From the IMG/VR virus record IMGVR_UViG_3300045988_039580: DNA of 39,628 nt. The stretch is one strand, 5' to 3'. Source of the stretch: a virus. The notes under the pieces were generated by a model. The model made no database searches, was not told where the DNA came from, and worked only from the letters and a program-made list of their open reading frames with translations. Made by a program: the position numbers and the translations under genes. This document shows, in pieces, positions 76-38,475 of this stretch (the first letter of the stretch is position 1; every line of letters starts with the position of its first letter).

Positions 76-105
76 AAGGGAATGCTATTTTTCAAGCATT
101 CCCTT
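61..105 (-). terminator. Strong rho-independent terminator ending the late/lysis operon
   Basis: 11-bp perfect stem (76..86 / 95..105), 8-nt loop, then CUUUUUUUUUAUUUU on the minus strand. The stop codon of the last lysis gene lies in the hairpin. Confidence 0.85.
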
Positions 106-333
106 GATCCGTTCCGAAAGATCTTTAACCTGTTCTTTTAGTGTAGCCACTTCCTTCTCCAGCTCGTTATGGCTTTCGATTTTTTTCGCCAGGCTGTCAA
201 CCTTTTTGTCCATCTGTTCCACTTTATAGTCCAGCAAGGCTGAATGTTTGGAGTTGCTGGTCCAGGTTGCTAGGACTGAAGGTACCCCGACGCAAAGTCC
301 GGATATGATCGCAACCAGAATTGTATCAGTCAT
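85..333 (-). CDS. Lysis-associated membrane protein, N-terminal TM helix plus coiled coil (XhlA-like architecture)
   Basis: 82 aa. Hydrophobic ILVAIISGLCVGVPSVLA followed by heptad-like K/E-rich helix. Start overlaps the holin stop (TAATG). Last gene before the terminator. Confidence 0.6.
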   Translation of the reverse strand: MTDTILVAIISGLCVGVPSVLATWTSNSKHSALLDYKVEQMDKKVDSLAKKIESHNELEKEVATLKEQVKDLSERIKGMLEK

Positions 334-542
334 TATTCTTCCTCATTTACTTCTGGCAAACCTGCTAGGCTTGTTAAAATTGAGCATACGCCTGCCACGA
401 CCGTTGTGCTCGCCGCGTACATCCAGTTTACGTCCGGAACGGCTGCGCCTACGGTGATAGAGGCTAGTGCTGTTTGAGCCATTGTCTTGATTGCTCGAAC
501 TCCTGCTGCTTCCCACCATGCTTTGTTTGTAAGTCTACTCAT
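333..542 (-). CDS. Holin (r1t-type-like)
   Basis: 69 aa with two hydrophobic segments. Pattern W..A..RAIKTMAQTA....W.....VVAGVCSILTSLAGLPE matches my recollection of r1t-family holins. GGAGGA RBS. Confidence 0.7.
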   Translation of the reverse strand: MSRLTNKAWWEAAGVRAIKTMAQTALASITVGAAVPDVNWMYAASTTVVAGVCSILTSLAGLPEVNEEE

Positions 543-562: not shown

Positions 563-590
563 AAAAAGGGCACGCCTTCTGGCATGCCTT
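563..590 (-). terminator. Intrinsic terminator immediately upstream of the holin RBS
   Basis: Minus-strand RNA GGCAUGCC-AGAA-GGCGUGCC followed by CUUUUU. One pair is G.U only on the minus strand. About 10 nt separate the U-tract from the holin SD. Confidence 0.7.
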
Positions 591-597
591 CAATCAC

Positions 598-993
598 CTA
601 TACTATTCTAGAAACCGTTTCTGATGCGTTGATCAGAGTTCCGGCTGCTGATGTAACCCACGTAAGAGCGACCTTGTTTCCTGGTGCAGCTGGTGCTGCC
701 TGAATGACAGCGGATACTGGAAGAGTAATCACGTTATCTGCTGCAGTTGTGGTTACTTGTGCTACGGCTCCCGGGACTGCTGTTCCGTTAGCATAAAGTT
801 GCACTTGATTTGTTCCCGCTGCGGTTGCTGAAATCACGAAGTTTCCGTCCACTTTATATGTTCCAGGTTTTACGATCTCCAGAGCGTTTCCGTTTAGATT
901 GACTCTGTTGTTTGTCCGAGTCTGAACGCTTCCTGGTGGAATCGTTGCGCCTGCTGCTAGTGTTGCGCTTGTCGTGTTGACGACTTGGATCAT
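598..993 (-). CDS. Small all-beta-looking protein resembling a BclA C-terminal / C1q-TNF-like jelly-roll domain
   Basis: 131 aa, rich in G/A/T/V/N. Segments PGTYKVDGNFVISATAAGTNQVQLYANGTAVPGAVAQV and LINASETVSRIV resemble exosporium BclA-CTD-type proteins. No collagen repeats. Confidence 0.45.
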   Translation of the reverse strand: MIQVVNTTSATLAAGATIPPGSVQTRTNNRVNLNGNALEIVKPGTYKVDGNFVISATAAGTNQVQLYANGTAVPGAVAQVTTTAADNVITLPVSAVIQAAPAAPGNKVALTWVTSAAGTLINASETVSRIV

Positions 994-1003
994 GTCTCTA
1001 CCT

Positions 1004-1600
1004 CTAGGCTACTGTAGCGCCTGCAGGGTAGTAAGTTCCGTATTGTGGGTAGTATGGCGGATTTGTGTAATATCGTCCTAATTGGCTCAAAATGTTTTGA
1101 GTTTGTACGCTGTTTGAAATTGCCTGCAAGCTTTGATCGTATTGAGTTTTTAGAGCGTCATATTTGTCTTGCATCATTTGGGTCTTCAAGTTGCAGCAGC
1201 ATTGTTCCATCTGGTGAGATAGATTGTTAATGCTTTCTTGTACTCCTCCAAAACCTTGGCATAAAGAACTGTTTACACCGTTGAAGCCATTCATCATGGC
1301 CATTTGTGTTTGGTTTGCGTTTTGCATCTGGTTCATGTTCACCTGATTGATTAGCTGAGCGTTTTCGTATGAGCTTGAGCAGAGTCCGTTTGTGATTCCG
1401 TCTAGCTTACTAACGATTGCTTGCGTATCGAATCCGCGCTGAACCTCAGCCTGTGTGCCTTGCTGGTTGTTTCCCCAGGCTCCGCCACCAAATCCAAAAA
1501 TCAAAAAGAATAAAATTAGAATGATAATCCCGTTTCCTTCTAGAAAGCCATCCTTGTTTCCAGTTACAGAAGCGATATCAGATAATGATAAGTTGTCCAT
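1004..1600 (-). CDS. Membrane-anchored Q/N-rich, Cys- and Tyr-containing protein of unknown function
   Basis: 198 aa. TM helix IIILILFFLIFGFGG, long Q/N-rich region with LCSSS, LCQGF and CCCNL, and a C-terminal YYTNPPYYPQYGTYYPAG. RBS AAAGGAG 7 nt upstream. Confidence 0.75.
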   Translation of the reverse strand: MDNLSLSDIASVTGNKDGFLEGNGIIILILFFLIFGFGGGAWGNNQQGTQAEVQRGFDTQAIVSKLDGITNGLCSSSYENAQLINQVNMNQMQNANQTQMAMMNGFNGVNSSLCQGFGGVQESINNLSHQMEQCCCNLKTQMMQDKYDALKTQYDQSLQAISNSVQTQNILSQLGRYYTNPPYYPQYGTYYPAGATVA

Positions 1601-1626
1601 GTGTGTTCTCCTTTCTTATCTATCTT

Positions 1627-1640
1627 GATTTTGCAAAATC
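1627..1640. promoter_or_regulatory. Perfect 14-bp palindrome GATTTTGCAAAATC in the 40-nt spacer upstream of the 198-aa gene
   Basis: Read directly. Lies immediately after the stop of the 64-aa ORF. Confidence 0.5.
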
Positions 1641-1835
1641 CTATTTTAGAAAGCCCTTGAACTGTTCGGCCATTCGTTTGGCTTGATCCAGTTGAGCCTG
1701 CGTAAATTTTCCGGAGGCCATCAGCTCGTTTAAAAGTTGCTGTGGGTCCTGCGTCCCTAGCATCTTTTTAAACTGCTGAAATTGTTGCATCATGTTTCCG
1801 TTTCCTCCTGGTCTATTTTGAAGTAGTGGATTCAT
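1641..1835 (-). CDS. Small Q-rich helical protein, unknown function
   Basis: 64 aa. GAGGAGG RBS 8 nt upstream. Overlaps the upstream gene end by 23 nt. Confidence 0.7.
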   Translation of the reverse strand: MNPLLQNRPGGNGNMMQQFQQFKKMLGTQDPQQLLNELMASGKFTQAQLDQAKRMAEQFKGFLK

Positions 1836-2175
1836 GACGGTTGCCTCCTCTCGCGTTCTGTTCTACCTTTGAAAGCCATTCCTTGAATTCGGCTTTCGTG
1901 AGGTACTTGTCTTCCGGTTGATCTTCTTTCACTTCCTGGAAGCTATAAGCCTTGATTGTACAGAAGCCACTTGCGTCGGCTTGTTTCTGATAAAAAACAG
2001 GCTTGTTACTGTCCATTAAAATCACGGACTGATTTGGTCCTAAAGTGAAAGCTTTAGCACTTTCGATTCCGTTTACAAACTGAATCTGGTTCATTTGTTG
2101 AGTCGGTGCCTGCATCTGTGGCATTCCAAACTGTCCAGGCTGCGGCATGAAATTATTGAAATATGGTGTGTTCAT
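1813..2175 (-). CDS. Protein with Q/P/M-rich N-terminus and a compact C-terminal domain, unknown function
   Basis: 120 aa. N-terminus NNFMPQPGQFGMPQMQAPTQQMNQ. RBS AGAGGT. Confidence 0.7.
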   Translation of the reverse strand: MNTPYFNNFMPQPGQFGMPQMQAPTQQMNQIQFVNGIESAKAFTLGPNQSVILMDSNKPVFYQKQADASGFCTIKAYSFQEVKEDQPEDKYLTKAEFKEWLSKVEQNARGGNRHESTTSK

Positions 2176-2181
2176 TGTGTT

Positions 2182-2499
2182 CTACCTCTTTTCACCTATA
2201 TTCTCTAATATTTCCGTGTCTGGAATTGTTCCTCTTTTGTCCTTCTTTAGCTTGTAAAATCCGAAGGCCATATCAACCAAAAGGGCCCAGTAGTAGTCGT
2301 TTAAATCTTTGACGGTTTCTTCGAATTCGTCTTTTGACATACCTGCGTCCTGGTAGTGCCATTGCGAGTCTTGCGTTTTGCTTCTTAGCTGGTATACAAC
2401 TTTTTTCTGTCTGTTGCTCAGCCCTTGTTCTTCGATTAGAAAATGCGCAAAGTCTGGGCGTAGAGGTGTCTGGTATCTTCTATTTATTCTCCTGTTCAT
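2182..2499 (-). CDS. Hypothetical protein, possibly a small HTH/sigma-r4-like regulator
   Basis: 105 aa. GLSNRQKKVVYQL resembles a recognition-helix region. No well-placed SD. The initiation region is the 13-mer AGCAATAGAACAC followed by A then ATG. Confidence 0.55.
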   Translation of the reverse strand: MNRRINRRYQTPLRPDFAHFLIEEQGLSNRQKKVVYQLRSKTQDSQWHYQDAGMSKDEFEETVKDLNDYYWALLVDMAFGFYKLKKDKRGTIPDTEILENIGEKR

Positions 2500-2521: not shown

Positions 2522-3385
2522 CTATTTAAATGTTCCGTATGGACTTGTGTTAAATCCGGCCGAGTTTAGCTCCCCACAGGCCATCCATCTACGTGTTCCG
2601 TCTGCGCCAATCCAAGAAATCCAACAGTAGCCTTCTCGCTTCACGTACCCGTCATAATTGACGTGCTGTCCTTGAATATATGTTAGGCCTGTGTCCTGTC
2701 CTTTTAGGCTTGGCGCGCGTCTGATCTTGATTGTACAAGCAGGATAGAATGTAGCCTTTTCGTGTACAAAATCGGACGGGATACCGTTTAGCACGGATGC
2801 TGATCCAGTAGAAGTCTGGCTTCCCTGATTGAATGGTACACGGCTTGCATCTGTCCAATTTGCGAATGTTCCCTTATTTAAAATGACTGTTCCGTCTGTT
2901 ACGAATGCCAAGTCTGCAGAAATGTTATTAGGCAAGTGATATACTCCTTGCGAATTTCTGTCGTACATATGAGAGAACTTCCCTTTTGCAACTTCGATAT
3001 GCGCGTGATTTCCTGTTGCATATCCTGCAGTCCCTTCGTCTCCGAACGTGTCTCCTTGCTTGAAGTATTTCACTCTTTTGATATCCTCGATGTAGTTATC
3101 ATGAATGAACATAAATGTAGCGAAATCAATCGTTCCGTCTCTAAATAGTACTTTTTTGTCTGATTCTAGGAATACTGCATTTCCGTTTCGCGCCGAGTCA
3201 TAGGCTACTAGGTGACAGTCGCATGGTGCAATTGTTTCATCGATCCCGGTATCTTTGCCCGCGTTATCCATAGCATTTGTGCCTAGATGCGTTCCTACGT
3301 TGTTTCCTTGGGTTACATTCATGTACTCCATCGGAAAGCCTAAAAGCTGATATCCGCCTTTTGTAAGTTTTTGTCCTTTTCTCAT
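2522..3385 (-). CDS. Endolysin: M23-like metallopeptidase domain plus C-terminal SH3b-like cell-wall-binding domain
   Basis: 287 aa. THLGTNAMD ... GYATGNHAHIEV (HxH) fits the LytM/M23 layout. C-terminal GYCWISWIGADGTRRWMACGE looks SH3b-like. RBS AAGGAGG. Confidence 0.7.
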   Translation of the reverse strand: MRKGQKLTKGGYQLLGFPMEYMNVTQGNNVGTHLGTNAMDNAGKDTGIDETIAPCDCHLVAYDSARNGNAVFLESDKKVLFRDGTIDFATFMFIHDNYIEDIKRVKYFKQGDTFGDEGTAGYATGNHAHIEVAKGKFSHMYDRNSQGVYHLPNNISADLAFVTDGTVILNKGTFANWTDASRVPFNQGSQTSTGSASVLNGIPSDFVHEKATFYPACTIKIRRAPSLKGQDTGLTYIQGQHVNYDGYVKREGYCWISWIGADGTRRWMACGELNSAGFNTSPYGTFK

Positions 3386-3409
3386 ATTCTGGACCTCCTT
3401 CTATTTATG

Positions 3410-3437
3410 AAAAAGGAGAAGTCTTTCGCTCCTCCTT
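3410..3437 (-). terminator. Intrinsic terminator between xkdX-like gene and endolysin
   Basis: Minus RNA AAGGAGGAG-CGAAAGA-CUUCUCCUU then UUUC. One G.U pair exists only on the minus strand. 10 nt separate it from the endolysin SD. Confidence 0.6.
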
Positions 3438-3447
3438 GTTTCCAGTG

Positions 3448-3573
3448 TTAGTATGTTTCTCCGGTGATTTCTTTATACTGATCAGGCGTAAGAAATCCTT
3501 TTTCGCAGAACTTTCTTACCTGCTTATCTGTATATAATTTTAGATTATAGAATCTTTTGATTTTTTCAAACAT
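3448..3573 (-). CDS. xkdX: XkdX-family small phage protein (below the ORF-track length cutoff)
   Basis: 41 aa, MFEKIKRFYNLKLYTDKQVRKFCEKGFLTPDQYKEITGETY. Classic XkdX pattern and position after the tail fibres. Confidence 0.8.
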   Translation of the reverse strand: MFEKIKRFYNLKLYTDKQVRKFCEKGFLTPDQYKEITGETY

Positions 3574-21206: not shown

Positions 21207-21696
21207 TATCGTCTCCGGCTACTGTATCCATAGCTTTCAATAAGATATCCAGTTTCGTAATCTCTTTAGAAGGGTCGCCTTGTCTCTTGATCTGTTCGGC
21301 TTGTGCGTTCATCAGTTTCGTTCTGGCTCTGTCTAGGCTTGTGACTGGTTGCTGTCCGGTAAGGTCTCGGATGAATTCAGCCGCCCTTACGTCACCGCGT
21401 GTGGCTTTGTTGAACATGGTTGCGGCTAGAAGCATTTGATTGCTGAGTTCCTCGTCTTCCAGTCCCATGTCGATAAGCTTTTCCTTGTTTCTTTCGCTTG
21501 GCTCCAACTCTAGGATTGCGGCCAGGCATTGTTTCAGCTTCTTTTTCTTTTTCTGGACTTTCTGGCTTGCGGCTCCGCCCTTGCGTCCCATCTCTGCTGC
21601 GTTCTCTTTCGTGAATGGCTTCAGGTTTTGCATTGGGTCTTTGCGCTGTTTGGCCGCTTCGGACTTTGTGCGTCCAGCTAATCCCTTAGCAGGCAT
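21193..21696 (-). CDS. terS: Terminase small subunit (assigned by position)
   Basis: 167 aa, basic N-terminal half (GRKGGAASQKVQKKKKK). Directly upstream of and overlapping terL. Confidence 0.55.
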   Translation of the reverse strand: MPAKGLAGRTKSEAAKQRKDPMQNLKPFTKENAAEMGRKGGAASQKVQKKKKKLKQCLAAILELEPSERNKEKLIDMGLEDEELSNQMLLAATMFNKATRGDVRAAEFIRDLTGQQPVTSLDRARTKLMNAQAEQIKRQGDPSKEITKLDILLKAMDTVAGDDSGIN

Positions 21697-22990
21697 CCTC
21701 GATTAGCTCCGCCTGTTCTCCGGTGTAATCTTCCCAGCGCTTGATAATTACATCGGCATAGTGTGGATCATACTCCATCATGAAGCATCTCCTTCCTAGC
21801 TGTTCGCAAGCCATAAGCGTGGAGCCTGAACCTCCGAATAGGTCCAATACGTTTTCTCCAGTCCGGCTGCTGTTCTTGATCTGTCTTGCAATCAGTGGAA
21901 TTGGTTTCATGGTTGGATGCAGATCGGATTTCGTGGGCTTCTTCTCGTCCAGAATCGTTGTGTCCTTGCACCCCCCCAGGATTGATTTTAGAAGGTCTTT
22001 AAGCTCGTCCTTCTTCATGCTGTCAATGTCCAGGTTCTCTGTATCTTCGAGTACGGTTACAAGGTTTCTAGTGTTGACGAAGTAATGGGCTGCGCCATCT
22101 TTCCATCCGTAAAGGCATGGCTCGTGTTTCCACTGGTAGTCTTGGCGACCCAGTGCGAATGTGTTCTTGTTCCAGATCAGCGTTTGTCGGATGTTTAGGC
22201 CTGCGCGTTCTGCAGCTTCCAAGAAGTTCTTGCTTTGTGTGGATGCGTACCAAATGTAGAAGGCACCTCCGGACTTAAGTTGTTCTGTCATGTTCTCGAA
22301 GGCTACTTTTAAAAACTCGATAAAGCCCTCGTCATCTTCCCATGAGTCATTATCAATGACCAGGCCGTCTGTTCTTCGGTGTAGCTGCTTGGCTTCGCTT
22401 GGTCTCATGTGCTGCCCTAAAGCTACGTTATACGGTGGATCAGTTACGACCATATCCATGGTAGCGTCGCTGCAAAGCTTTTCTACGTCCTGGCGTTTGG
22501 TACTGTCTCCGACCATCAATCTGTGCCTTCCTAGCATCCAGCATTGTCCTCTTTTGGTTGTTGGTTCTTCCGGAATCTCTGGCTCGAAGTTGTCGTCCTC
22601 TGCGATTTGTTCGTCGAAGGTTTCAGTCTCAAATCCGAAAGGCTCCATATCGAAGTCCATGTTGTCTAGTTCTTCCAGTTCAAACTGTAAAGCGTCAAGG
22701 TCCCATTGTGCTGCTTCCGCGACTTTGTTATCTGCGAGTCGGTAGGCTTTCACCTGTGCTGGTGTTAAATCGTCGGCCTGGATGCATGGCACTGTCTCAA
22801 GGCCTAGCTTTTGTGCTGCCTTCCACCTGGTGTGTCCTGCAATGATGATCAGGTCTTTATCCACCACAATTGGTTGCTTGAATCCGAACTCGTCTATAGA
22901 TGCTGCGACTAAATCGACGGCATCTTCGTTGAGTCGTGGGTTGTTCTCGTAAGGCTTCAGGTCGCATGTTCTTATGTCTGTAATGTTCAT
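21686..22990 (-). CDS. ParB-like nuclease domain fused to a beta-class N6A/N4C DNA methyltransferase
   Basis: 434 aa. N-terminus NPR...IIIAGHTRWKAA (ParB/Srx-like). Motif IV DPPY, then C-terminal motif I LDLFGGSGST. Confidence 0.85.
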   Translation of the reverse strand: MNITDIRTCDLKPYENNPRLNEDAVDLVAASIDEFGFKQPIVVDKDLIIIAGHTRWKAAQKLGLETVPCIQADDLTPAQVKAYRLADNKVAEAAQWDLDALQFELEELDNMDFDMEPFGFETETFDEQIAEDDNFEPEIPEEPTTKRGQCWMLGRHRLMVGDSTKRQDVEKLCSDATMDMVVTDPPYNVALGQHMRPSEAKQLHRRTDGLVIDNDSWEDDEGFIEFLKVAFENMTEQLKSGGAFYIWYASTQSKNFLEAAERAGLNIRQTLIWNKNTFALGRQDYQWKHEPCLYGWKDGAAHYFVNTRNLVTVLEDTENLDIDSMKKDELKDLLKSILGGCKDTTILDEKKPTKSDLHPTMKPIPLIARQIKNSSRTGENVLDLFGGSGSTLMACEQLGRRCFMMEYDPHYADVIIKRWEDYTGEQAELIEDAC

Positions 22991-35200: not shown

Positions 35201-35569
35201 TTGAAGTTAAATCATGATTTAGTTCGGTTGCTCCTACTTGAGATAGAAGATAAAACCGGACCGTATGATTCTTTAGAAGTCCCTGAAATTTCTATAGCTG
35301 AATATACTGAAGACGAGGTCTTTTATACTGCTGAGCGTCTTTTAGAGGCGGGCTATATCAAGGCCCAACTTGAACCTACACAGATAAGTCACAGCCGATG
35401 TATCTATTCTTTGACTTGGGAAGGTCATAAATATTTGGATATCGTCCGAGATAAAGATGTATGGAAACAAACGCGTATAGTTATTAAAAAGTTTTCGTCT
35501 GTATCCTTCAGCCTTGCTTGCAGAATTGCTGAGCAGATTCTTCTAGATAAAATCAGAGGCACATATTAA
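35201..35569 (+). CDS. DUF2513-family (winged-helix-like) protein
   Basis: 122 aa. N-terminus MKLNHDLVRLLLLEIEDK... and ...LTWEGHKYLD fit the DUF2513 pattern. TTG start 8 nt after AAGGAGG. Confidence 0.65.
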   Translation: MKLNHDLVRLLLLEIEDKTGPYDSLEVPEISIAEYTEDEVFYTAERLLEAGYIKAQLEPTQISHSRCIYSLTWEGHKYLDIVRDKDVWKQTRIVIKKFSSVSFSLACRIAEQILLDKIRGTY

Positions 35570-37368: not shown

Positions 37369-38475
37369 ATGGCTCAGCAAAAGGACACAAAAAGGGGAAC
37401 CTGGATGTTCTATGGTTCCTGTAAAGATATTACCGGAAAGACTCAGCGATATTGTCGTCGAGGTTTCAAAACAAAAAAGGAAGCAAAAGAAGCCGAGTTT
37501 GCCTTCCGTCTGGAAATGACTACCGCTCGGCCTTCTATAACCTTAAATGAAATGTTTCAGGTATACTGCAAAAACGCAGAGAATATGTCCGTAAAAGGAT
37601 CCACTCTCTATACGCACGAACATACTTATAGAAATCACATCCAGGATGATTTGGGAAGCTTGAAGCTTACGGCGCTTACGACTCCCGTTCTGGATCAGTG
37701 GAGAAACCGTCTGCTTCAAAAGAAAAAACCAAACGGTCAGCTTTATGCAGCCCCCACTTTAAATGGCATTTTAGATACACTTTCCGTTATTCTTTCCTAT
37801 TCCGTTAGACTTGGATATCTTGAAGTCAACCCGTGCAGATCTTTGCCTATCGTGAAAGATAAACGGAACCTGAAGGACCAGAGTCTGTTATTCTGGGAGC
37901 AGGAAACCTTTACTTATTTTATATCCTGCGTGGACGACCCGTATTGGCGTGATGTCTTTATGTTTATGTATGGCACTGGTGTCCGTAAATCTGAAATGTT
38001 TGCCCTCCAATGGTCGGATGTTGATCTAGGCAGAGGCCGGGTGCATATTTCAAAAACATTAACTATAAAAACAGAATCGGCTCCGTGGGAGATTACTCCA
38101 CCTAAATCTAAAAACTCAAACAGATATATTGATCTACAGGATACCCTTCTAGATTGCCTAAGGCGTCGCTATAGCGAGCAACAAAAGAAGGACGGGTTCT
38201 CGTCCTCCTGGTTTGTGTTTGGCCATATAAAGCCACTTCTGGCGCCCAGACTGGCTGTTGCTTTGAAGAGATATATCCAGGCTGCTGGTGTTCCGCCTAT
38301 CTCCCCTCATGGCTTTAGACACTCTCATGCGACTCTGCTGATTCGTGCCGGTGTAGATGATCAGCTGATCGCAGAAAGGCTAGGGCACTCTGTTAGTGAA
38401 TTAAGAAAAACTTATGCGCATATATACTCCGAATCTAGGCGTGAAATGCTGGATAAATTGAACAAAATTTTATAA
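37369..38475 (+). CDS. int: Tyrosine integrase
   Basis: 368 aa. ...GVRKSEMFALQWSDV..., HGFRHSHATLL, LGHSVSELRKTYAHIY (R-H-R-Y catalytic set). Confidence 0.95.
   Translation: MAQQKDTKRGTWMFYGSCKDITGKTQRYCRRGFKTKKEAKEAEFAFRLEMTTARPSITLNEMFQVYCKNAENMSVKGSTLYTHEHTYRNHIQDDLGSLKLTALTTPVLDQWRNRLLQKKKPNGQLYAAPTLNGILDTLSVILSYSVRLGYLEVNPCRSLPIVKDKRNLKDQSLLFWEQETFTYFISCVDDPYWRDVFMFMYGTGVRKSEMFALQWSDVDLGRGRVHISKTLTIKTESAPWEITPPKSKNSNRYIDLQDTLLDCLRRRYSEQQKKDGFSSSWFVFGHIKPLLAPRLAVALKRYIQAAGVPPISPHGFRHSHATLLIRAGVDDQLIAERLGHSVSELRKTYAHIYSESRREMLDKLNKIL

What the first reader, a model, noticed from the sequence alone, without database searches (positions are those of the whole stretch)
598..2499. Five-gene cassette of unknown function wedged between endolysin and holin (C1q/BclA-like protein, Q/N/Cys/Tyr-rich membrane protein, Q-rich small proteins, small regulator-like protein)
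The endolysin (2522..3385) and holin (333..542) are separated by five co-oriented genes that I cannot place in any lysis function. The cassette is bounded by intrinsic terminators at 3410..3437 and 563..590.

The products are:
- a 105-aa protein with a possible HTH (GLSNRQKKVVYQL);
- a 120-aa protein with a Q/P/M-rich N-terminus;
- a 64-aa Q-rich helical protein;
- a 198-aa protein with one TM helix, a long Q/N-rich ectodomain containing LCSSS, LCQGF and CCCNL, and a Tyr/Pro-rich tail (YYTNPPYYPQYGTYYPAG);
- a 131-aa beta-rich protein whose sequence pattern recalls BclA C-terminal (C1q/TNF-like) trimeric domains.

Q-rich, Cys-rich and Tyr-rich composition together with a BclA-CTD-like fold is the flavour of cross-linked spore-coat or exosporium proteins. 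One speculative reading is therefore a phage-borne cell- or spore-surface remodelling module. Other possibilities are lysis-timing factors or a surface-exclusion system. A perfect 14-bp palindrome, GATTTTGCAAAATC (1627..1640), sits inside the cassette.
Basis: partly seen in the sequence, partly recalled or inferred. Interest (0 to 1): 0.68.

Follow-up and report, generated by a model that had tools for sequence, protein, structure and literature searches.

The report
Conserved phage membrane stalk-and-head gene module
Between the cell-bursting genes of this gut-bacterial virus sits a real, widely conserved but uncharacterised gene set that probably builds a membrane-anchored rod capped by a protein shaped like Bacillus spore-surface proteins; what it does is still unknown, and a role in spores is unlikely.

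Summary
All five ORFs, the quoted motifs and both flanking terminator hairpins are present, and the genes are under strong purifying selection (pN/pS 0.02-0.11).

The unit is really 4+1. A core of g120-g64-g198-g131 keeps the same order in dozens of divergent phages and prophages of Clostridia, including SPbeta-like large phages and the lytic Butyrivibrio phage Ceridwen. g105 is found only in this phage's clade.

g131 models confidently (pLDDT 92) as a TNF/C1q jelly roll, closest to BclA-CTD, F-BclA and the stand-alone exosporium adaptor BxpB/ExsF (TM 0.83).

g198 anchors a family of more than 2,000 clusters at 50% identity. It has an acidic N-tail, a hydrophobic Gly-flanked segment, a long amphipathic helical rod with an invariant Cys, and a variable Pro/Tyr/Cys tail.

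The gene after g198 is exchangeable (five classes seen), and the g198 tail composition tracks its class. This suggests a stalk plus a docked head.

The module always lies in the late region, next to tail-fibre or lysis genes, and it is dispensable. Its presence in a lytic-only phage of a non-sporulating host argues against spore remodelling. The HTH in g105 is unverified, and the palindrome occurs at chance frequency. The biological role is unresolved.

The parts
2182..2499 (-). g105: a 105-aa basic/acidic protein that is a clade-specific add-on to the module. A possible HTH (FLIEEQGLSNRQKKVVYQL) is unverified.
   Evidence: ORF. Homologues occur only in the window-type clade (L055-57, L133-138). 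No Pfam, PHROG, NCBIfam or PDB match. hhalign against sigma-r4-like neighbours gives probability 7.7%. pN/pS is 0.10. The C-terminus varies between 97 and 105 aa.
1813..2175 (-). g120: core gene 1. It has a Q/P/M/Y-rich, low-complexity N-terminus, a conserved ~50-aa beta-rich domain, and a C-terminal helix (YLTKAEFKEW).
   Evidence: Matches phrog_21718 (E = 8e-15, unknown function). The family is found at the same position in almost all loci. No PDB sequence match. pN/pS is 0.02.
1641..1835 (-). g64: core gene 2, a small Q/M-rich helical protein. Its start overlaps the end of g120 by 23 nt.
   Evidence: Matches phrog_22984 (E = 2e-14). The family has two subtypes that occupy the same position. 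No PDB match. pN/pS is 0.10.
1004..1600 (-). g198: core gene 3 and the anchor of the module. It has an acidic N-tail with a conserved SLSDIAAV helix, a hydrophobic Gly/aromatic-flanked segment (residues ~24-42), a ~125-residue Q/N-rich amphipathic helical rod with the CCC motif (C136 invariant), a conserved QTQNIL..LGRY.TNPP motif, and a variable Tyr/Pro tail.
   Evidence: - ORF; matches phrog_16490.
- 829 homologues, and 2,044 clusters at 50% identity.
- Conserved residues from alignments A1 and A10.
- The AF2 model is all-helical but low-confidence, pLDDT 48.
- Hydrophobicity period is 3.65 residues.
- The N-tail is acidic in 232 of 234 members.
598..993 (-). g131: gene 4, the exchangeable 'head'. 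It is a stand-alone TNF/C1q jelly-roll protein of the BclA-CTD / BxpB-ExsF type, with no Cys and no signal peptide.
   Evidence: - Pfam BclA_C, E = 2.3e-6, below the gathering cut-off.
- The family profile hits cerebellin, BclA and C1q in the PDB.
- AF2 pLDDT is 92.3.
- Foldseek hits: BclA (E = 1.7e-8), F-BclA, BxpB (TMq 0.83) and ExsFA.
- Viral relatives are uncharacterised.
569..588 (-). Intrinsic-terminator-like hairpin between g131 and the holin.
   Evidence: Called by the scan. Folds at -15.6 kcal/mol and is followed by UUUUU.
3409..3442 (-). Terminator-like hairpin between XkdX and the endolysin, at the upstream boundary of the endolysin-plus-cassette transcription unit.
   Evidence: Folds at -14.7 kcal/mol and is followed by UUUUUC. 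The consensus scan does not call it.
2522..3385 (-). Endolysin (context gene). It lies 22 nt upstream of g105, so the cassette is read from the same transcript.
   Evidence: Matches SH3_5 (E = 8e-8), gives a weak Peptidase_M23 hit, and matches endolysin PHROGs. Spacing.
333..542 (-). Holin (context gene).
   Evidence: Matches Phage_r1t_holin (E = 1.2e-14) and phrog_443 holin.
1627..1640 (.). 14-nt perfect palindrome GATTTTGCAAAATC in the g64-g198 spacer. It is probably not a functional element.
   Evidence: Present in 47 of 50 near-identical phages but absent from L055 and L057. The count of such palindromes in the window equals the chance expectation.

Best explanation
**What it is.** The cassette is a mobile, dispensable late-region accessory module of phages that infect Clostridia. 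Its core has four genes: g120, g64, g198 and a fourth, exchangeable gene, which here is g131. g105 is a local add-on.

**Proposed mechanism: a stalk with a docked head**
1. g198 is held in the cytoplasmic membrane by its N-proximal hydrophobic, Gly/aromatic-flanked segment. Its short acidic N-tail most likely faces outwards and the large domain faces the cytoplasm.
2. Its ~125-residue Q/N-rich amphipathic helical rod oligomerises. The rod has an 11/3-type periodicity and an invariant Cys.
3. Its variable Pro/Tyr/Cys-rich C-terminal tail docks the product of the next gene.
4. Here that product is g131, a stand-alone TNF/C1q jelly roll. By analogy with Bacillus BxpB/ExsF, it would trimerise and clamp Pro-rich peptides in its inter-subunit clefts.
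5. g120 and g64 are Q/M-rich cytoplasmic partners, acting as scaffold or chaperone.

**Timing and role.** All parts are made late, from the same attenuated transcript as the endolysin. The assembly therefore acts at the membrane at or after lysis, on release of the progeny or on the fate of the envelope debris, and not in spore building.

**Shown:** real genes; conserved synteny; the TNF fold of g131; late-region location; dispensability; co-variation of the g198 tail with the class of gene 4.

**Inferred:** topology; oligomerisation; tail-head docking; the roles of g120 and g64; the biological role.
For: **Synteny.** The order g120-g64-g198-g131 is kept in divergent settings:
- SPbeta-like phages.
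- 27 Clostridia genome loci.
- About 30 diverse IMG/VR phages.
- Butyrivibrio phage Ceridwen.

**Retention.** The five-gene cassette stays between endolysin and holin even where both lysis genes are of unrelated types: GH25+LysM with a Dp-1 holin in L055, against M23-like/SH3_5 with an r1t holin here.

**Selection.** pN/pS is 0.02-0.11.

**Fold of g131.** The best TM-score is to BxpB/ExsF, which docks Pro-rich leader peptides at trimer clefts (PMC12357932).

**Exchangeable gene 4.** The classes are TNF without Cys, TNF with Cys, an unrelated Cys-rich beta protein, a 148-177-aa type, and a ~103-aa rubrerythrin-like helical type. The g198 tail composition tracks the class, and Cys counts correlate with rho 0.68-0.75.

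**Topology.** The g198 N-tail is acidic in 232 of 234 members, and no signal peptide is visible in g120, g64 or g131 (read).

**Helical rod.** AF2 secondary structure and a 3.65-residue periodicity above shuffles.

**Late region.** Neighbours are tail-fibre, head, endolysin and holin genes. 8 of 33 phages picked only by holin similarity carry the module just after holin-endolysin, and 25 lack it.
Against: - No direct evidence of any protein-protein contact. Only monomer models could be run, and the g198 model has low confidence (pLDDT 48).
- The tail/gene-4 and Cys correlations are confounded by shared ancestry.
- The charge rule for topology is weak: K+R counts are equal on both sides of the hydrophobic segment. 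In many relatives that segment is only ~12-13 residues long.
- A 3.65-residue period also fits a helix lying on a membrane surface rather than a coiled coil.
- The same head class occurs with unrelated endolysins and holins. The head therefore does not seem to recognise the lysis proteins, which leaves the biological role open.
- The position of the module varies: between head and tail genes, before tail fibres, or beside the integrase.
Confidence: 0.35

Rival explanations
1. **Lysis accessory acting on the membrane.** g198 is a spanin-like, class-III-holin-like or antiholin-like protein. It would have an N-terminal membrane anchor and an extracytoplasmic helical domain with Cys residues, and the other proteins would tune lysis timing or complete envelope disruption.
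For: - In this clade the module sits inside the lysis cassette and is co-transcribed with the endolysin.
- The module directly follows holin-endolysin in 8 of 33 holin-selected phages and in Ceridwen.
- The architecture resembles i-spanins (Rz) and the T4 holin T: N-terminal hydrophobic segment, two long helices and conserved Cys. The comparison rests on my own knowledge; the architecture comes.
Against: - The hosts are monoderm Clostridia, so no outer membrane needs fusing.
- No lipoprotein (o-spanin-like) partner is seen in the cassette.
- A canonical r1t holin and an XhlA-like protein are already present.
- Most related phages lyse without the module.
- In many phages the module is far from the lysis genes (SPbeta-like, L145, L155-L162).
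- The head class does not co-vary with endolysin or holin type.
Confidence: 0.2
2. **Receptor masking or superinfection exclusion (cor/llp-like).** A wall-spanning stalk would display an exchangeable binding head. The head would block the phage receptor on infected cells or on debris, protecting the progeny.
For: - The distal gene is exchangeable on a conserved anchor.
- TNF-like domains are common tips of phage fibres.
- The module often lies next to tail-fibre genes in the late region. The known receptor blockers cor and llp lie beside tail or RBP genes (own knowledge).
- It is found in temperate phages and in an apparently virulent one, and it is dispensable.
Against: - g131, g120 and g64 have no signal peptide or lipobox (sequence).
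- The acidic N-tail favours a cytoplasmic large domain.
- Most relatives are very Cys-rich, which is unusual for exported proteins of anaerobic Firmicutes (own knowledge).
- There is no promoter for expression in the lysogen.
Confidence: 0.15
3. **Virion-associated or morphogenetic proteins.** The products would be decoration or fibre parts, or assembly factors for tail fibres.
For: - The location is always in the late region, sometimes between head and tail genes or directly before tail-fibre genes.
- In SPbeta-like phages the module lies just upstream of the YonG-YonB structural block.
- The TNF-like fold is common in fibre tips.
Against: - The position floats between unrelated slots, unlike essential structural genes.
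- Most relatives lack the module.
- g198 has a membrane-type hydrophobic segment.
- No match to any structural PHROG or Pfam family.
- g131 has no attachment domain.
Confidence: 0.12
4. **The first reader's reading.** A phage-borne module that remodels the spore coat, exosporium or cell surface of the lysogen with cross-linkable Q/Cys/Tyr-rich proteins and a BclA-like protein.
For: - g131 is structurally closest to the exosporium proteins BclA, F-BclA and BxpB/ExsF.
- Most family members of g198 and of gene 4 are Cys-rich with CC/CGC motifs, as in exosporium and ENA proteins (PMC12357932).
- Arg/Gly/Tyr-rich neighbours (c5/c9) and small sigma-r4/GerE-like genes accompany the module in other loci.
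- Many hosts belong to spore-forming lineages.
Against: - Here the module is embedded in the late lytic transcript with the endolysin and has no own promoter.
- It is present in Ceridwen, a phage without integrase that was seen only in the lytic cycle. Its host, B. fibrisolvens, is a non-spore-former (established knowledge).
- There is no exosporium leader, no collagen repeats, and no homology to coat or exosporium families beyond the TNF fold.
Confidence: 0.06

Closest known systems
BxpB/ExsFA (ExsF) and the BclA C-terminal domain of the Bacillus cereus-group exosporium (TNF/C1q superfamily; PDB 8D02, 7R1M, 9H3D, 1WCK, 9H38)
   Same: g131 has the same jelly-roll fold (Foldseek E = 1.7e-8 to 1e-6, TMq 0.74-0.83). 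It also gives weak but consistent sequence-profile matches to BclA_C, cerebellin and C1q. Like BxpB/ExsF, it is a stand-alone ~130-150-aa domain without a stalk of its own.
   Different: Sequence identity is only ~16%, and the Pfam score is below the BclA_C gathering cut-off. g131 has no collagen repeats and no exosporium leader. It is encoded in a phage late operon, not a sporulation regulon. Its partner is a membrane-anchored helical protein, not ExsY/CotY or BclA. Trimerisation and peptide docking are untested.
Type II transmembrane TNF-superfamily ligands (e.g. EDA-A1), and BclA as an 'anchor-stalk-head' fibre
   Same: Taken together, g198 and g131 reproduce the layout of short N-tail, membrane anchor, long stalk and TNF-like head. 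EDA and TWEAK are among the structural hits.
   Different: Here the stalk and head are separate polypeptides. The stalk is a Q/N-rich alpha-helical rod rather than collagen. The head position can be filled by unrelated folds. The orientation is probably cytoplasmic, whereas TNF ligands are extracellular.
i-spanins (lambda Rz type) and the T4 class III holin T
   Same: All have an N-terminal membrane anchor followed by a large helical domain with functionally conserved Cys, and are encoded in or beside the lysis cassette.
   Different: There is no sequence or profile similarity and no o-spanin lipoprotein partner. The hosts are monoderm. A separate canonical holin is present. The module is often located away from the lysis genes.
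Holin/endolysin-flanked cargo loci ('type 10 secretion'-like layouts such as C. difficile PaLoc tcdE/tcdL or Serratia chiWXYZ), and phage morons
   Same: Signal-peptide-less proteins are encoded between an endolysin and a holin. The cassette is bounded by terminators, is dispensable, and appears at different places in late regions, as morons do.
   Different: This is an intact temperate siphovirus whose lysis releases everything anyway. No own promoter was found. No toxin or enzyme cargo is recognisable.

Membership tests
TNF/C1q superfamily, BclA_C (PF18573), tested for g131 | Compact 10-strand beta jelly-roll of the TNF/C1q type | tested here: met
   The AF2 model has pLDDT 92.3 and pTM 0.84, and is all-beta. 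The top 50 Foldseek PDB hits are BclA, F-BclA, BxpB/ExsFA, EDA, TWEAK, C1q and C1QL.
TNF/C1q superfamily, BclA_C (PF18573), tested for g131 | Score above Pfam's curated gathering cut-off | tested here: not met
   The score is 28 bits against a cut-off of 38 (E = 2.3e-6). Some close homologues carry a precomputed PF18573 hit. The family profile hits BclA chains at E = 2.6e-4 to 1.9e-3.
TNF/C1q superfamily, BclA_C (PF18573), tested for g131 | Homotrimer | not testable with these tools
   Only single-chain prediction was available.
BclA-type collagen-like exosporium glycoprotein | N-terminal exosporium leader plus GXY collagen repeats before the C-terminal domain | tested here: not met
   g131 is 131 aa and consists of the jelly roll only. 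No GXY repeats occur in any cassette ORF. NCBIfam gives no hit.
BxpB/ExsFA exosporium adaptor | Stand-alone TNF-like protein that docks Pro-rich leader peptides in trimer clefts and sits in the exosporium basal layer | tested here: inconclusive
   The fold and the stand-alone architecture are met (TMq 0.83 to 8D02). Docking is not testable. A Pro/Tyr-rich g198 tail exists and co-varies with gene 4. The exosporium context is not met, because this is a phage late operon that also occurs in a lytic phage.
Holin (tested for g198) | Small membrane protein with at least one TMD and a charged hydrophilic C-terminus, acting as the lysis-timing gene of the cassette | tested here: not met
   g198 has one hydrophobic segment, a ~155-aa Q/N-rich domain and an uncharged Tyr/Pro tail. 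It matches no holin family. A bona fide r1t holin is present at 333-542.
Two-component spanin (i-spanin/o-spanin) | Type II membrane protein with coiled-coil periplasmic domain, plus an outer-membrane lipoprotein partner, in a diderm host | tested here: not met
   The anchor-plus-helices architecture is similar. No ORF in the cassette has a lipobox or signal peptide (sequence). The hosts are Lachnospiraceae, Oscillospiraceae and Erysipelotrichaceae, which are monoderm by established knowledge.
Sigma-70 region 4 / HTH regulator (tested for g105) | Recognisable HTH domain by profile | tested here: not met
   No Pfam, PHROG, NCBIfam or PDB match. hhalign against the sigma-r4-like proteins that sit upstream of the module in other loci gives probability 7.7%.
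Moron (autonomous accessory cassette in a late operon) | Own promoter and terminator; presence/absence polymorphism among related phages | tested here: inconclusive
   A terminator is present, and presence/absence polymorphism is seen. No promoter-like site stands out above the shuffled background, and the spacers are only 10-40 nt.
   No Pfam or NCBIfam coat or exosporium family is matched. The resemblance is only compositional. Expression could not be tested.

The most novel reading that the evidence does not exclude
The module encodes a previously unrecognised class of phage-made structure. It would be assembled in the cytoplasm and anchored in the membrane, and it would be cross-linkable through Cys and Tyr. 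In form it would be a fibre or 'nap', a phage counterpart of the exosporium BclA/ExsF nap and of endospore appendages. Lysis would set it free on membrane fragments, and it would then work outside the cell. Possible jobs are clustering or shielding progeny virions, masking receptors on debris, or sticking infected-cell remnants to neighbouring hosts. Its exchangeable heads would set the binding specificity.
Probability: 0.15. Interest if true: 0.8.

Novelty: new variant of a known kind. Interest (0 to 1): 0.55.

Why it matters
The anchor protein defines a very large family: 2,044 clusters at 50% identity with E <= 1e-3, and 713 with E <= 1e-10. The family has no name, no Pfam domain and no known function. 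It travels with fixed partners in phages of the dominant gut and rumen Clostridia.

A conserved, strongly selected but dispensable late-gene module points to a step of the phage life cycle in Gram-positive anaerobes that current models of packaging, tail assembly and holin-endolysin lysis do not include.

One part has the fold of the Bacillus exosporium adaptor and nap proteins, and its partner is swappable. This gives a concrete, testable structural hypothesis of a stalk plus a docked head. A cultured system exists to test it: phage Ceridwen on B. fibrisolvens DSM 3071. It also links phage biology to the TNF/C1q-based surface architectures of Firmicutes.

Tried and rejected
**Searches that found nothing**
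- Near-identical DNA in GenBank phages: no match.
- Profile searches against PDB sequences for g198, g120, g64, g105, the c8 family and the c13 family: nothing significant.
- NCBIfam: only noise, such as the ZorA2 coiled-coil tail at E = 0.005.
- Literature searches for BclA/C1q in prophage lysis cassettes and for DUF7841: nothing relevant.

**Models and comparisons that did not help**
- AF2 of g198 gave pLDDT 48, so no fold search was run on it.
- hhalign of g105 against the sigma-r4-like c14 proteins was not significant.
- hhalign of the Cys-rich c13 proteins against the TNF-like family showed them unrelated. Position 4 therefore holds non-homologous proteins.

**Ideas rejected**
- Rosetta-stone fusions of g198 with a head domain: none among the best 150 representatives, all of which are 90-309 aa.
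- The palindrome as an operator: chance level, and not conserved in the next clade.
- The 126-aa Cys-His-Asp protein (c8) as a core component: it also occurs alone in Tsamsa-like Bacillus phages and in GBK2.
- The head as a binder of endolysin or holin: the same head class occurs with unrelated lysis genes.

**Idea considered but not supported**
- A double-glycine-leader reading of the g198 N-terminus (LSLSDIASVTGN). No bacteriocin-leader model hit it.


Full report
**Setting.** The window is a ~39-kb temperate siphovirus genome read almost entirely on the minus strand.
- The right end carries an integrase (37369-38475) and a repressor.
- Next come replication genes, portal, major head protein, tape measure, tail fibre, XkdX (3448-3573), an endolysin (2522-3385), the five genes in question, an r1t-type holin (333-542), and an 82-aa membrane plus coiled-coil protein (85-333).
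- About 50 nearly identical phages occur in human-gut IMG/VR data.

**Checking the observation.**
- All five ORFs and the quoted sequence motifs are present.
- The spacers are short. There are 22 nt between endolysin and g105, and 10 nt between g198 and g131. g120 and g64 overlap by 23 nt. The set is therefore read with the endolysin.
- Terminator-like hairpins bracket the endolysin-plus-cassette unit: 3409-3442 (-14.7 kcal/mol) and 569-588 (-15.6 kcal/mol).
- No promoter-like site stands out.
- Among about 40 relatives at ~95% nucleotide identity, every ORF is intact and pN/pS is 0.02-0.11.
- The 14-nt palindrome exists, but two such palindromes in the window equal the shuffled expectation of 2.0 +/- 1.5. 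It is also absent in the next clade.

**The 131-aa protein.**
- Pfam gives a sub-threshold BclA_C hit (E = 2.3e-6).
- A profile of 27 family members hits cerebellin, five BclA entries, C1q and collagen X in PDB sequences.
- AlphaFold2 gives an all-beta model with pLDDT 92.3.
- Foldseek ranks the BclA C-terminal domain first (E = 1.7e-8).
- Next come F-BclA, BxpB (TMq 0.83), ExsFA, and eukaryotic TNF/C1q domains.
- Its viral structural neighbours are uncharacterised gut-virome proteins.
- Like BxpB/ExsF, it is a bare head with no stalk.
- In Bacillus, ExsF trimers clamp Pro-rich leader peptides of BclA and F-Anchor in their inter-subunit clefts (PMC12357932).

**The unit is 4+1 and is widespread.**
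- The 198-aa protein has 829 homologues in the 90%-clustered collection, none named.
- It has 2,044 representative clusters at 50% identity with E <= 1e-3. The best 150 are 90-309 aa (mostly 160-310) with no domain fusions.
- Distant homologues lie in SPbeta-like large phages, where the same order recurs. That order is a Q/N/M-rich protein, a small Q-rich protein, the g198 homologue, and a g131 homologue (BLASTP E = 1e-13).
- The order recurs in 27 prophage loci of Lachnospiraceae, Oscillospiraceae, Christensenellales, Anaerofustis, Ruminococcus, Agathobacter and an Erysipelotrichaceae isolate.
- It also recurs in about 30 diverse IMG/VR phages of up to 124 kb.
- It occurs in the cultured Butyrivibrio phage Ceridwen.
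- g105 occurs only in the window's own clade.
- In other clades, other genes accompany the core:
  - a small sigma-r4-like protein;
  - a 126-aa protein with an invariant Cys/His/Asp pattern;
  - Arg/Gly/Tyr-rich proteins with DUF7841;
  - a small HExxH protein.
- The 126-aa protein also occurs alone in Tsamsa-like Bacillus phages, so it is not core.

**Anatomy of the anchor protein.** Family alignments show five parts:
- A conserved acidic N-tail, net negative in 232 of 234 members.
- A hydrophobic segment flanked by Gly/aromatic runs.
- A long Q/N-rich helical region. The AF2 model has low confidence but is all-helical, with helices at 50-116 and 121-174. The hydrophobicity period is 3.65 residues, not 3.5, and it is clearly above shuffles. 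Some variants contain explicit 11-residue repeats.
- An invariant Cys within a CCC motif, followed by a conserved QTQNIL..LGRY.TNPP motif.
- A variable C-terminal tail.

Most relatives carry 7-14 Cys and end in CGCGC-like tails. The window's version is Cys-poor and Tyr/Pro-rich.

**The fourth position is exchangeable.** It can hold any of five types:
- a Cys-free TNF-like protein, as here;
- a Cys-rich TNF-like protein;
- a Cys-rich beta protein with no detectable relation to the TNF family;
- a 148-177-aa type;
- a ~103-aa helical protein with a weak rubrerythrin match.

The composition of the g198 tail follows the class of this gene:

| Gene-4 class | g198 tail |
|---|---|
| Cys-free TNF | Tyr-rich |
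| Cys-rich classes | Cys-rich |
| Helical (rubrerythrin-like) | Ala/Thr, with no Cys |

This is shown. Cys counts in the two proteins correlate with rho 0.68-0.75. The pattern is what a tail-to-partner contact would produce. It is confounded by common descent and is not proof.

**Where the module sits.**
- It is always in the late region.
- Its neighbours are tail-fibre, baseplate, head, endolysin and holin genes.
- In the window's clade the cassette stays between endolysin and holin even when both are replaced by unrelated types. L055 has GH25+LysM and a Dp-1 holin.
- I selected 33 phages only by similarity to the r1t holin. Most have holin directly followed by endolysin. Eight of the 33 carry the module just downstream, and 25 lack it. 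The module is therefore an accessory cassette with an affinity for the lysis and tail-fibre end of the late operon.

**Function.** Spore or exosporium remodelling is unlikely as the general role, for three reasons:
- Here the genes are in the lytic late transcript.
- Ceridwen carries the module but has no integrase and was only seen to grow lytically (PMC7372960).
- B. fibrisolvens does not sporulate (established knowledge).

My best reading is structural. It has four elements:
- g198 forms a membrane-anchored helical stalk.
- The Pro/Tyr/Cys tail of g198 docks the exchangeable product of the next gene.
- Here that product is a BxpB/ExsF-like TNF trimer.
- g120 and g64 act as Q/M-rich cytoplasmic helpers.

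Two facts suggest that the assembly forms on the cytoplasmic face late in infection and is exposed or released at lysis. g120, g64 and g131 lack export signals, and the g198 N-tail is acidic.

What the assembly then does is not settled. The same head class occurs with unrelated endolysins and holins. This argues against a head that recognises the lysis proteins. Lysis assistance, receptor masking and a virion-associated role remain as rivals. Each has specific evidence against it, listed under the rival explanations.

**Comparison with known systems.**
- g131 is a structural member of the TNF/C1q superfamily and is nearest to exosporium proteins. It fails the defining features of BclA proper (leader, collagen) and the exosporium context of ExsF.
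- g198 is not a holin or spanin by any test available.
- The overall layout resembles anchor-stalk-head designs (BclA on ExsF; type II TNF ligands). It differs in being split into separate genes, in using an alpha-helical Q/N-rich stalk, and in allowing non-homologous heads.
- I therefore rate it a new variant of a known architectural kind, carried by an otherwise uncharacterised and very large phage gene family.

**Verdict.** Interest is moderate to high (0.55). The mechanism is only partly inferred, but the module is real, widespread, unexplained and experimentally tractable.

Noticed in passing
window 85-333 (-) and hairpin 76-105: An 82-aa protein with an N-terminal hydrophobic segment and a coiled coil follows the holin and overlaps its stop codon. 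It matches DUF7365 and weakly matches XhlA/holin/spanin-like PHROGs. A strong terminator hairpin (-17.1 kcal/mol) follows it. It is probably an XhlA-like lysis accessory.
   Followed up: partly
window 2522-3385 compared with L001-L050 and L055: The endolysin is mosaic among close relatives. Only 7 of ~50 near-identical phages give a full-length ungapped match, whereas the cassette genes match in 20-48. The next clade has an unrelated GH25+LysM endolysin and a Dp-1 holin around the same cassette.
   Followed up: partly
window 1004-1600, residues 1-15 of g198 (MDNLSLSDIASVTGN): The conserved acidic N-terminal helix fits the spacing of double-glycine bacteriocin leaders (L-12, S-11, acidic -8, hydrophobic -7 and -4, G-2), except that position -1 is Asn. 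In some loci a small Cys-His-Asp (C39-like?) protein lies just upstream. No leader model matched, so this is only a lead.
   Followed up: partly
L155, L156-L159, L147, L152, L162 (gene after the g198 homologue): In one large clade the fourth gene is a ~103-aa helical protein with E..EE..H motifs and a weak Rubrerythrin match (E = 0.0025). There the anchor protein keeps only the three Cys of the CCC motif. This hints at metal binding.
   Followed up: partly
L051 and L052 (SPbeta-like contigs of 106 and 90 kb, sample SRR21150940): The module lies between HU/integrase-type genes and the YonG-YonB structural block. The anchor protein there contains explicit tandem 11-residue repeats (NAMDNxxLIDR).
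   Followed up: partly
L063, L064, L074, L078, L080, L060, L140-L144 (gene after position 4): DUF7841 proteins follow the module. They often have long Arg/Asp/Gly/Tyr/Met-rich low-complexity regions with repeated RRRDSRGRYM motifs. A related ~170-aa family (phrog_28802) occurs in other loci. The window has no such gene.
   Followed up: partly
window 2182-2499 (g105) compared with L001-L050: The C-terminus of g105 is dimorphic among near-identical phages, ending either ...PDMKI (97 aa) or ...EILENIGEKR (105 aa). The first ~90 residues are almost invariant.
   Followed up: yes
window 35208-35221: The only other perfect 14-nt palindrome in the window (TAAATCATGATTTA) lies at the start of the plus-strand ORF 35201-35569, in the divergent region next to the lysogeny genes. 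It is a possible operator.
   Followed up: no
window 21686-22990 (-): A 434-aa protein combines a ParB-like nuclease N-terminus with a DNA methyltransferase domain (phrog_498, E = 2e-152).
   Followed up: no
L085 (Bacillus phage Izhevsk) and L086 (Geobacillus phage GBK2): Homologues of the 126-aa Cys-His-Asp protein (phrog_3754) occur in early or accessory regions of Tsamsa-like Bacillus phages and GBK2 without the module. Some records annotate them as 'putative peptidase'.
   Followed up: partly
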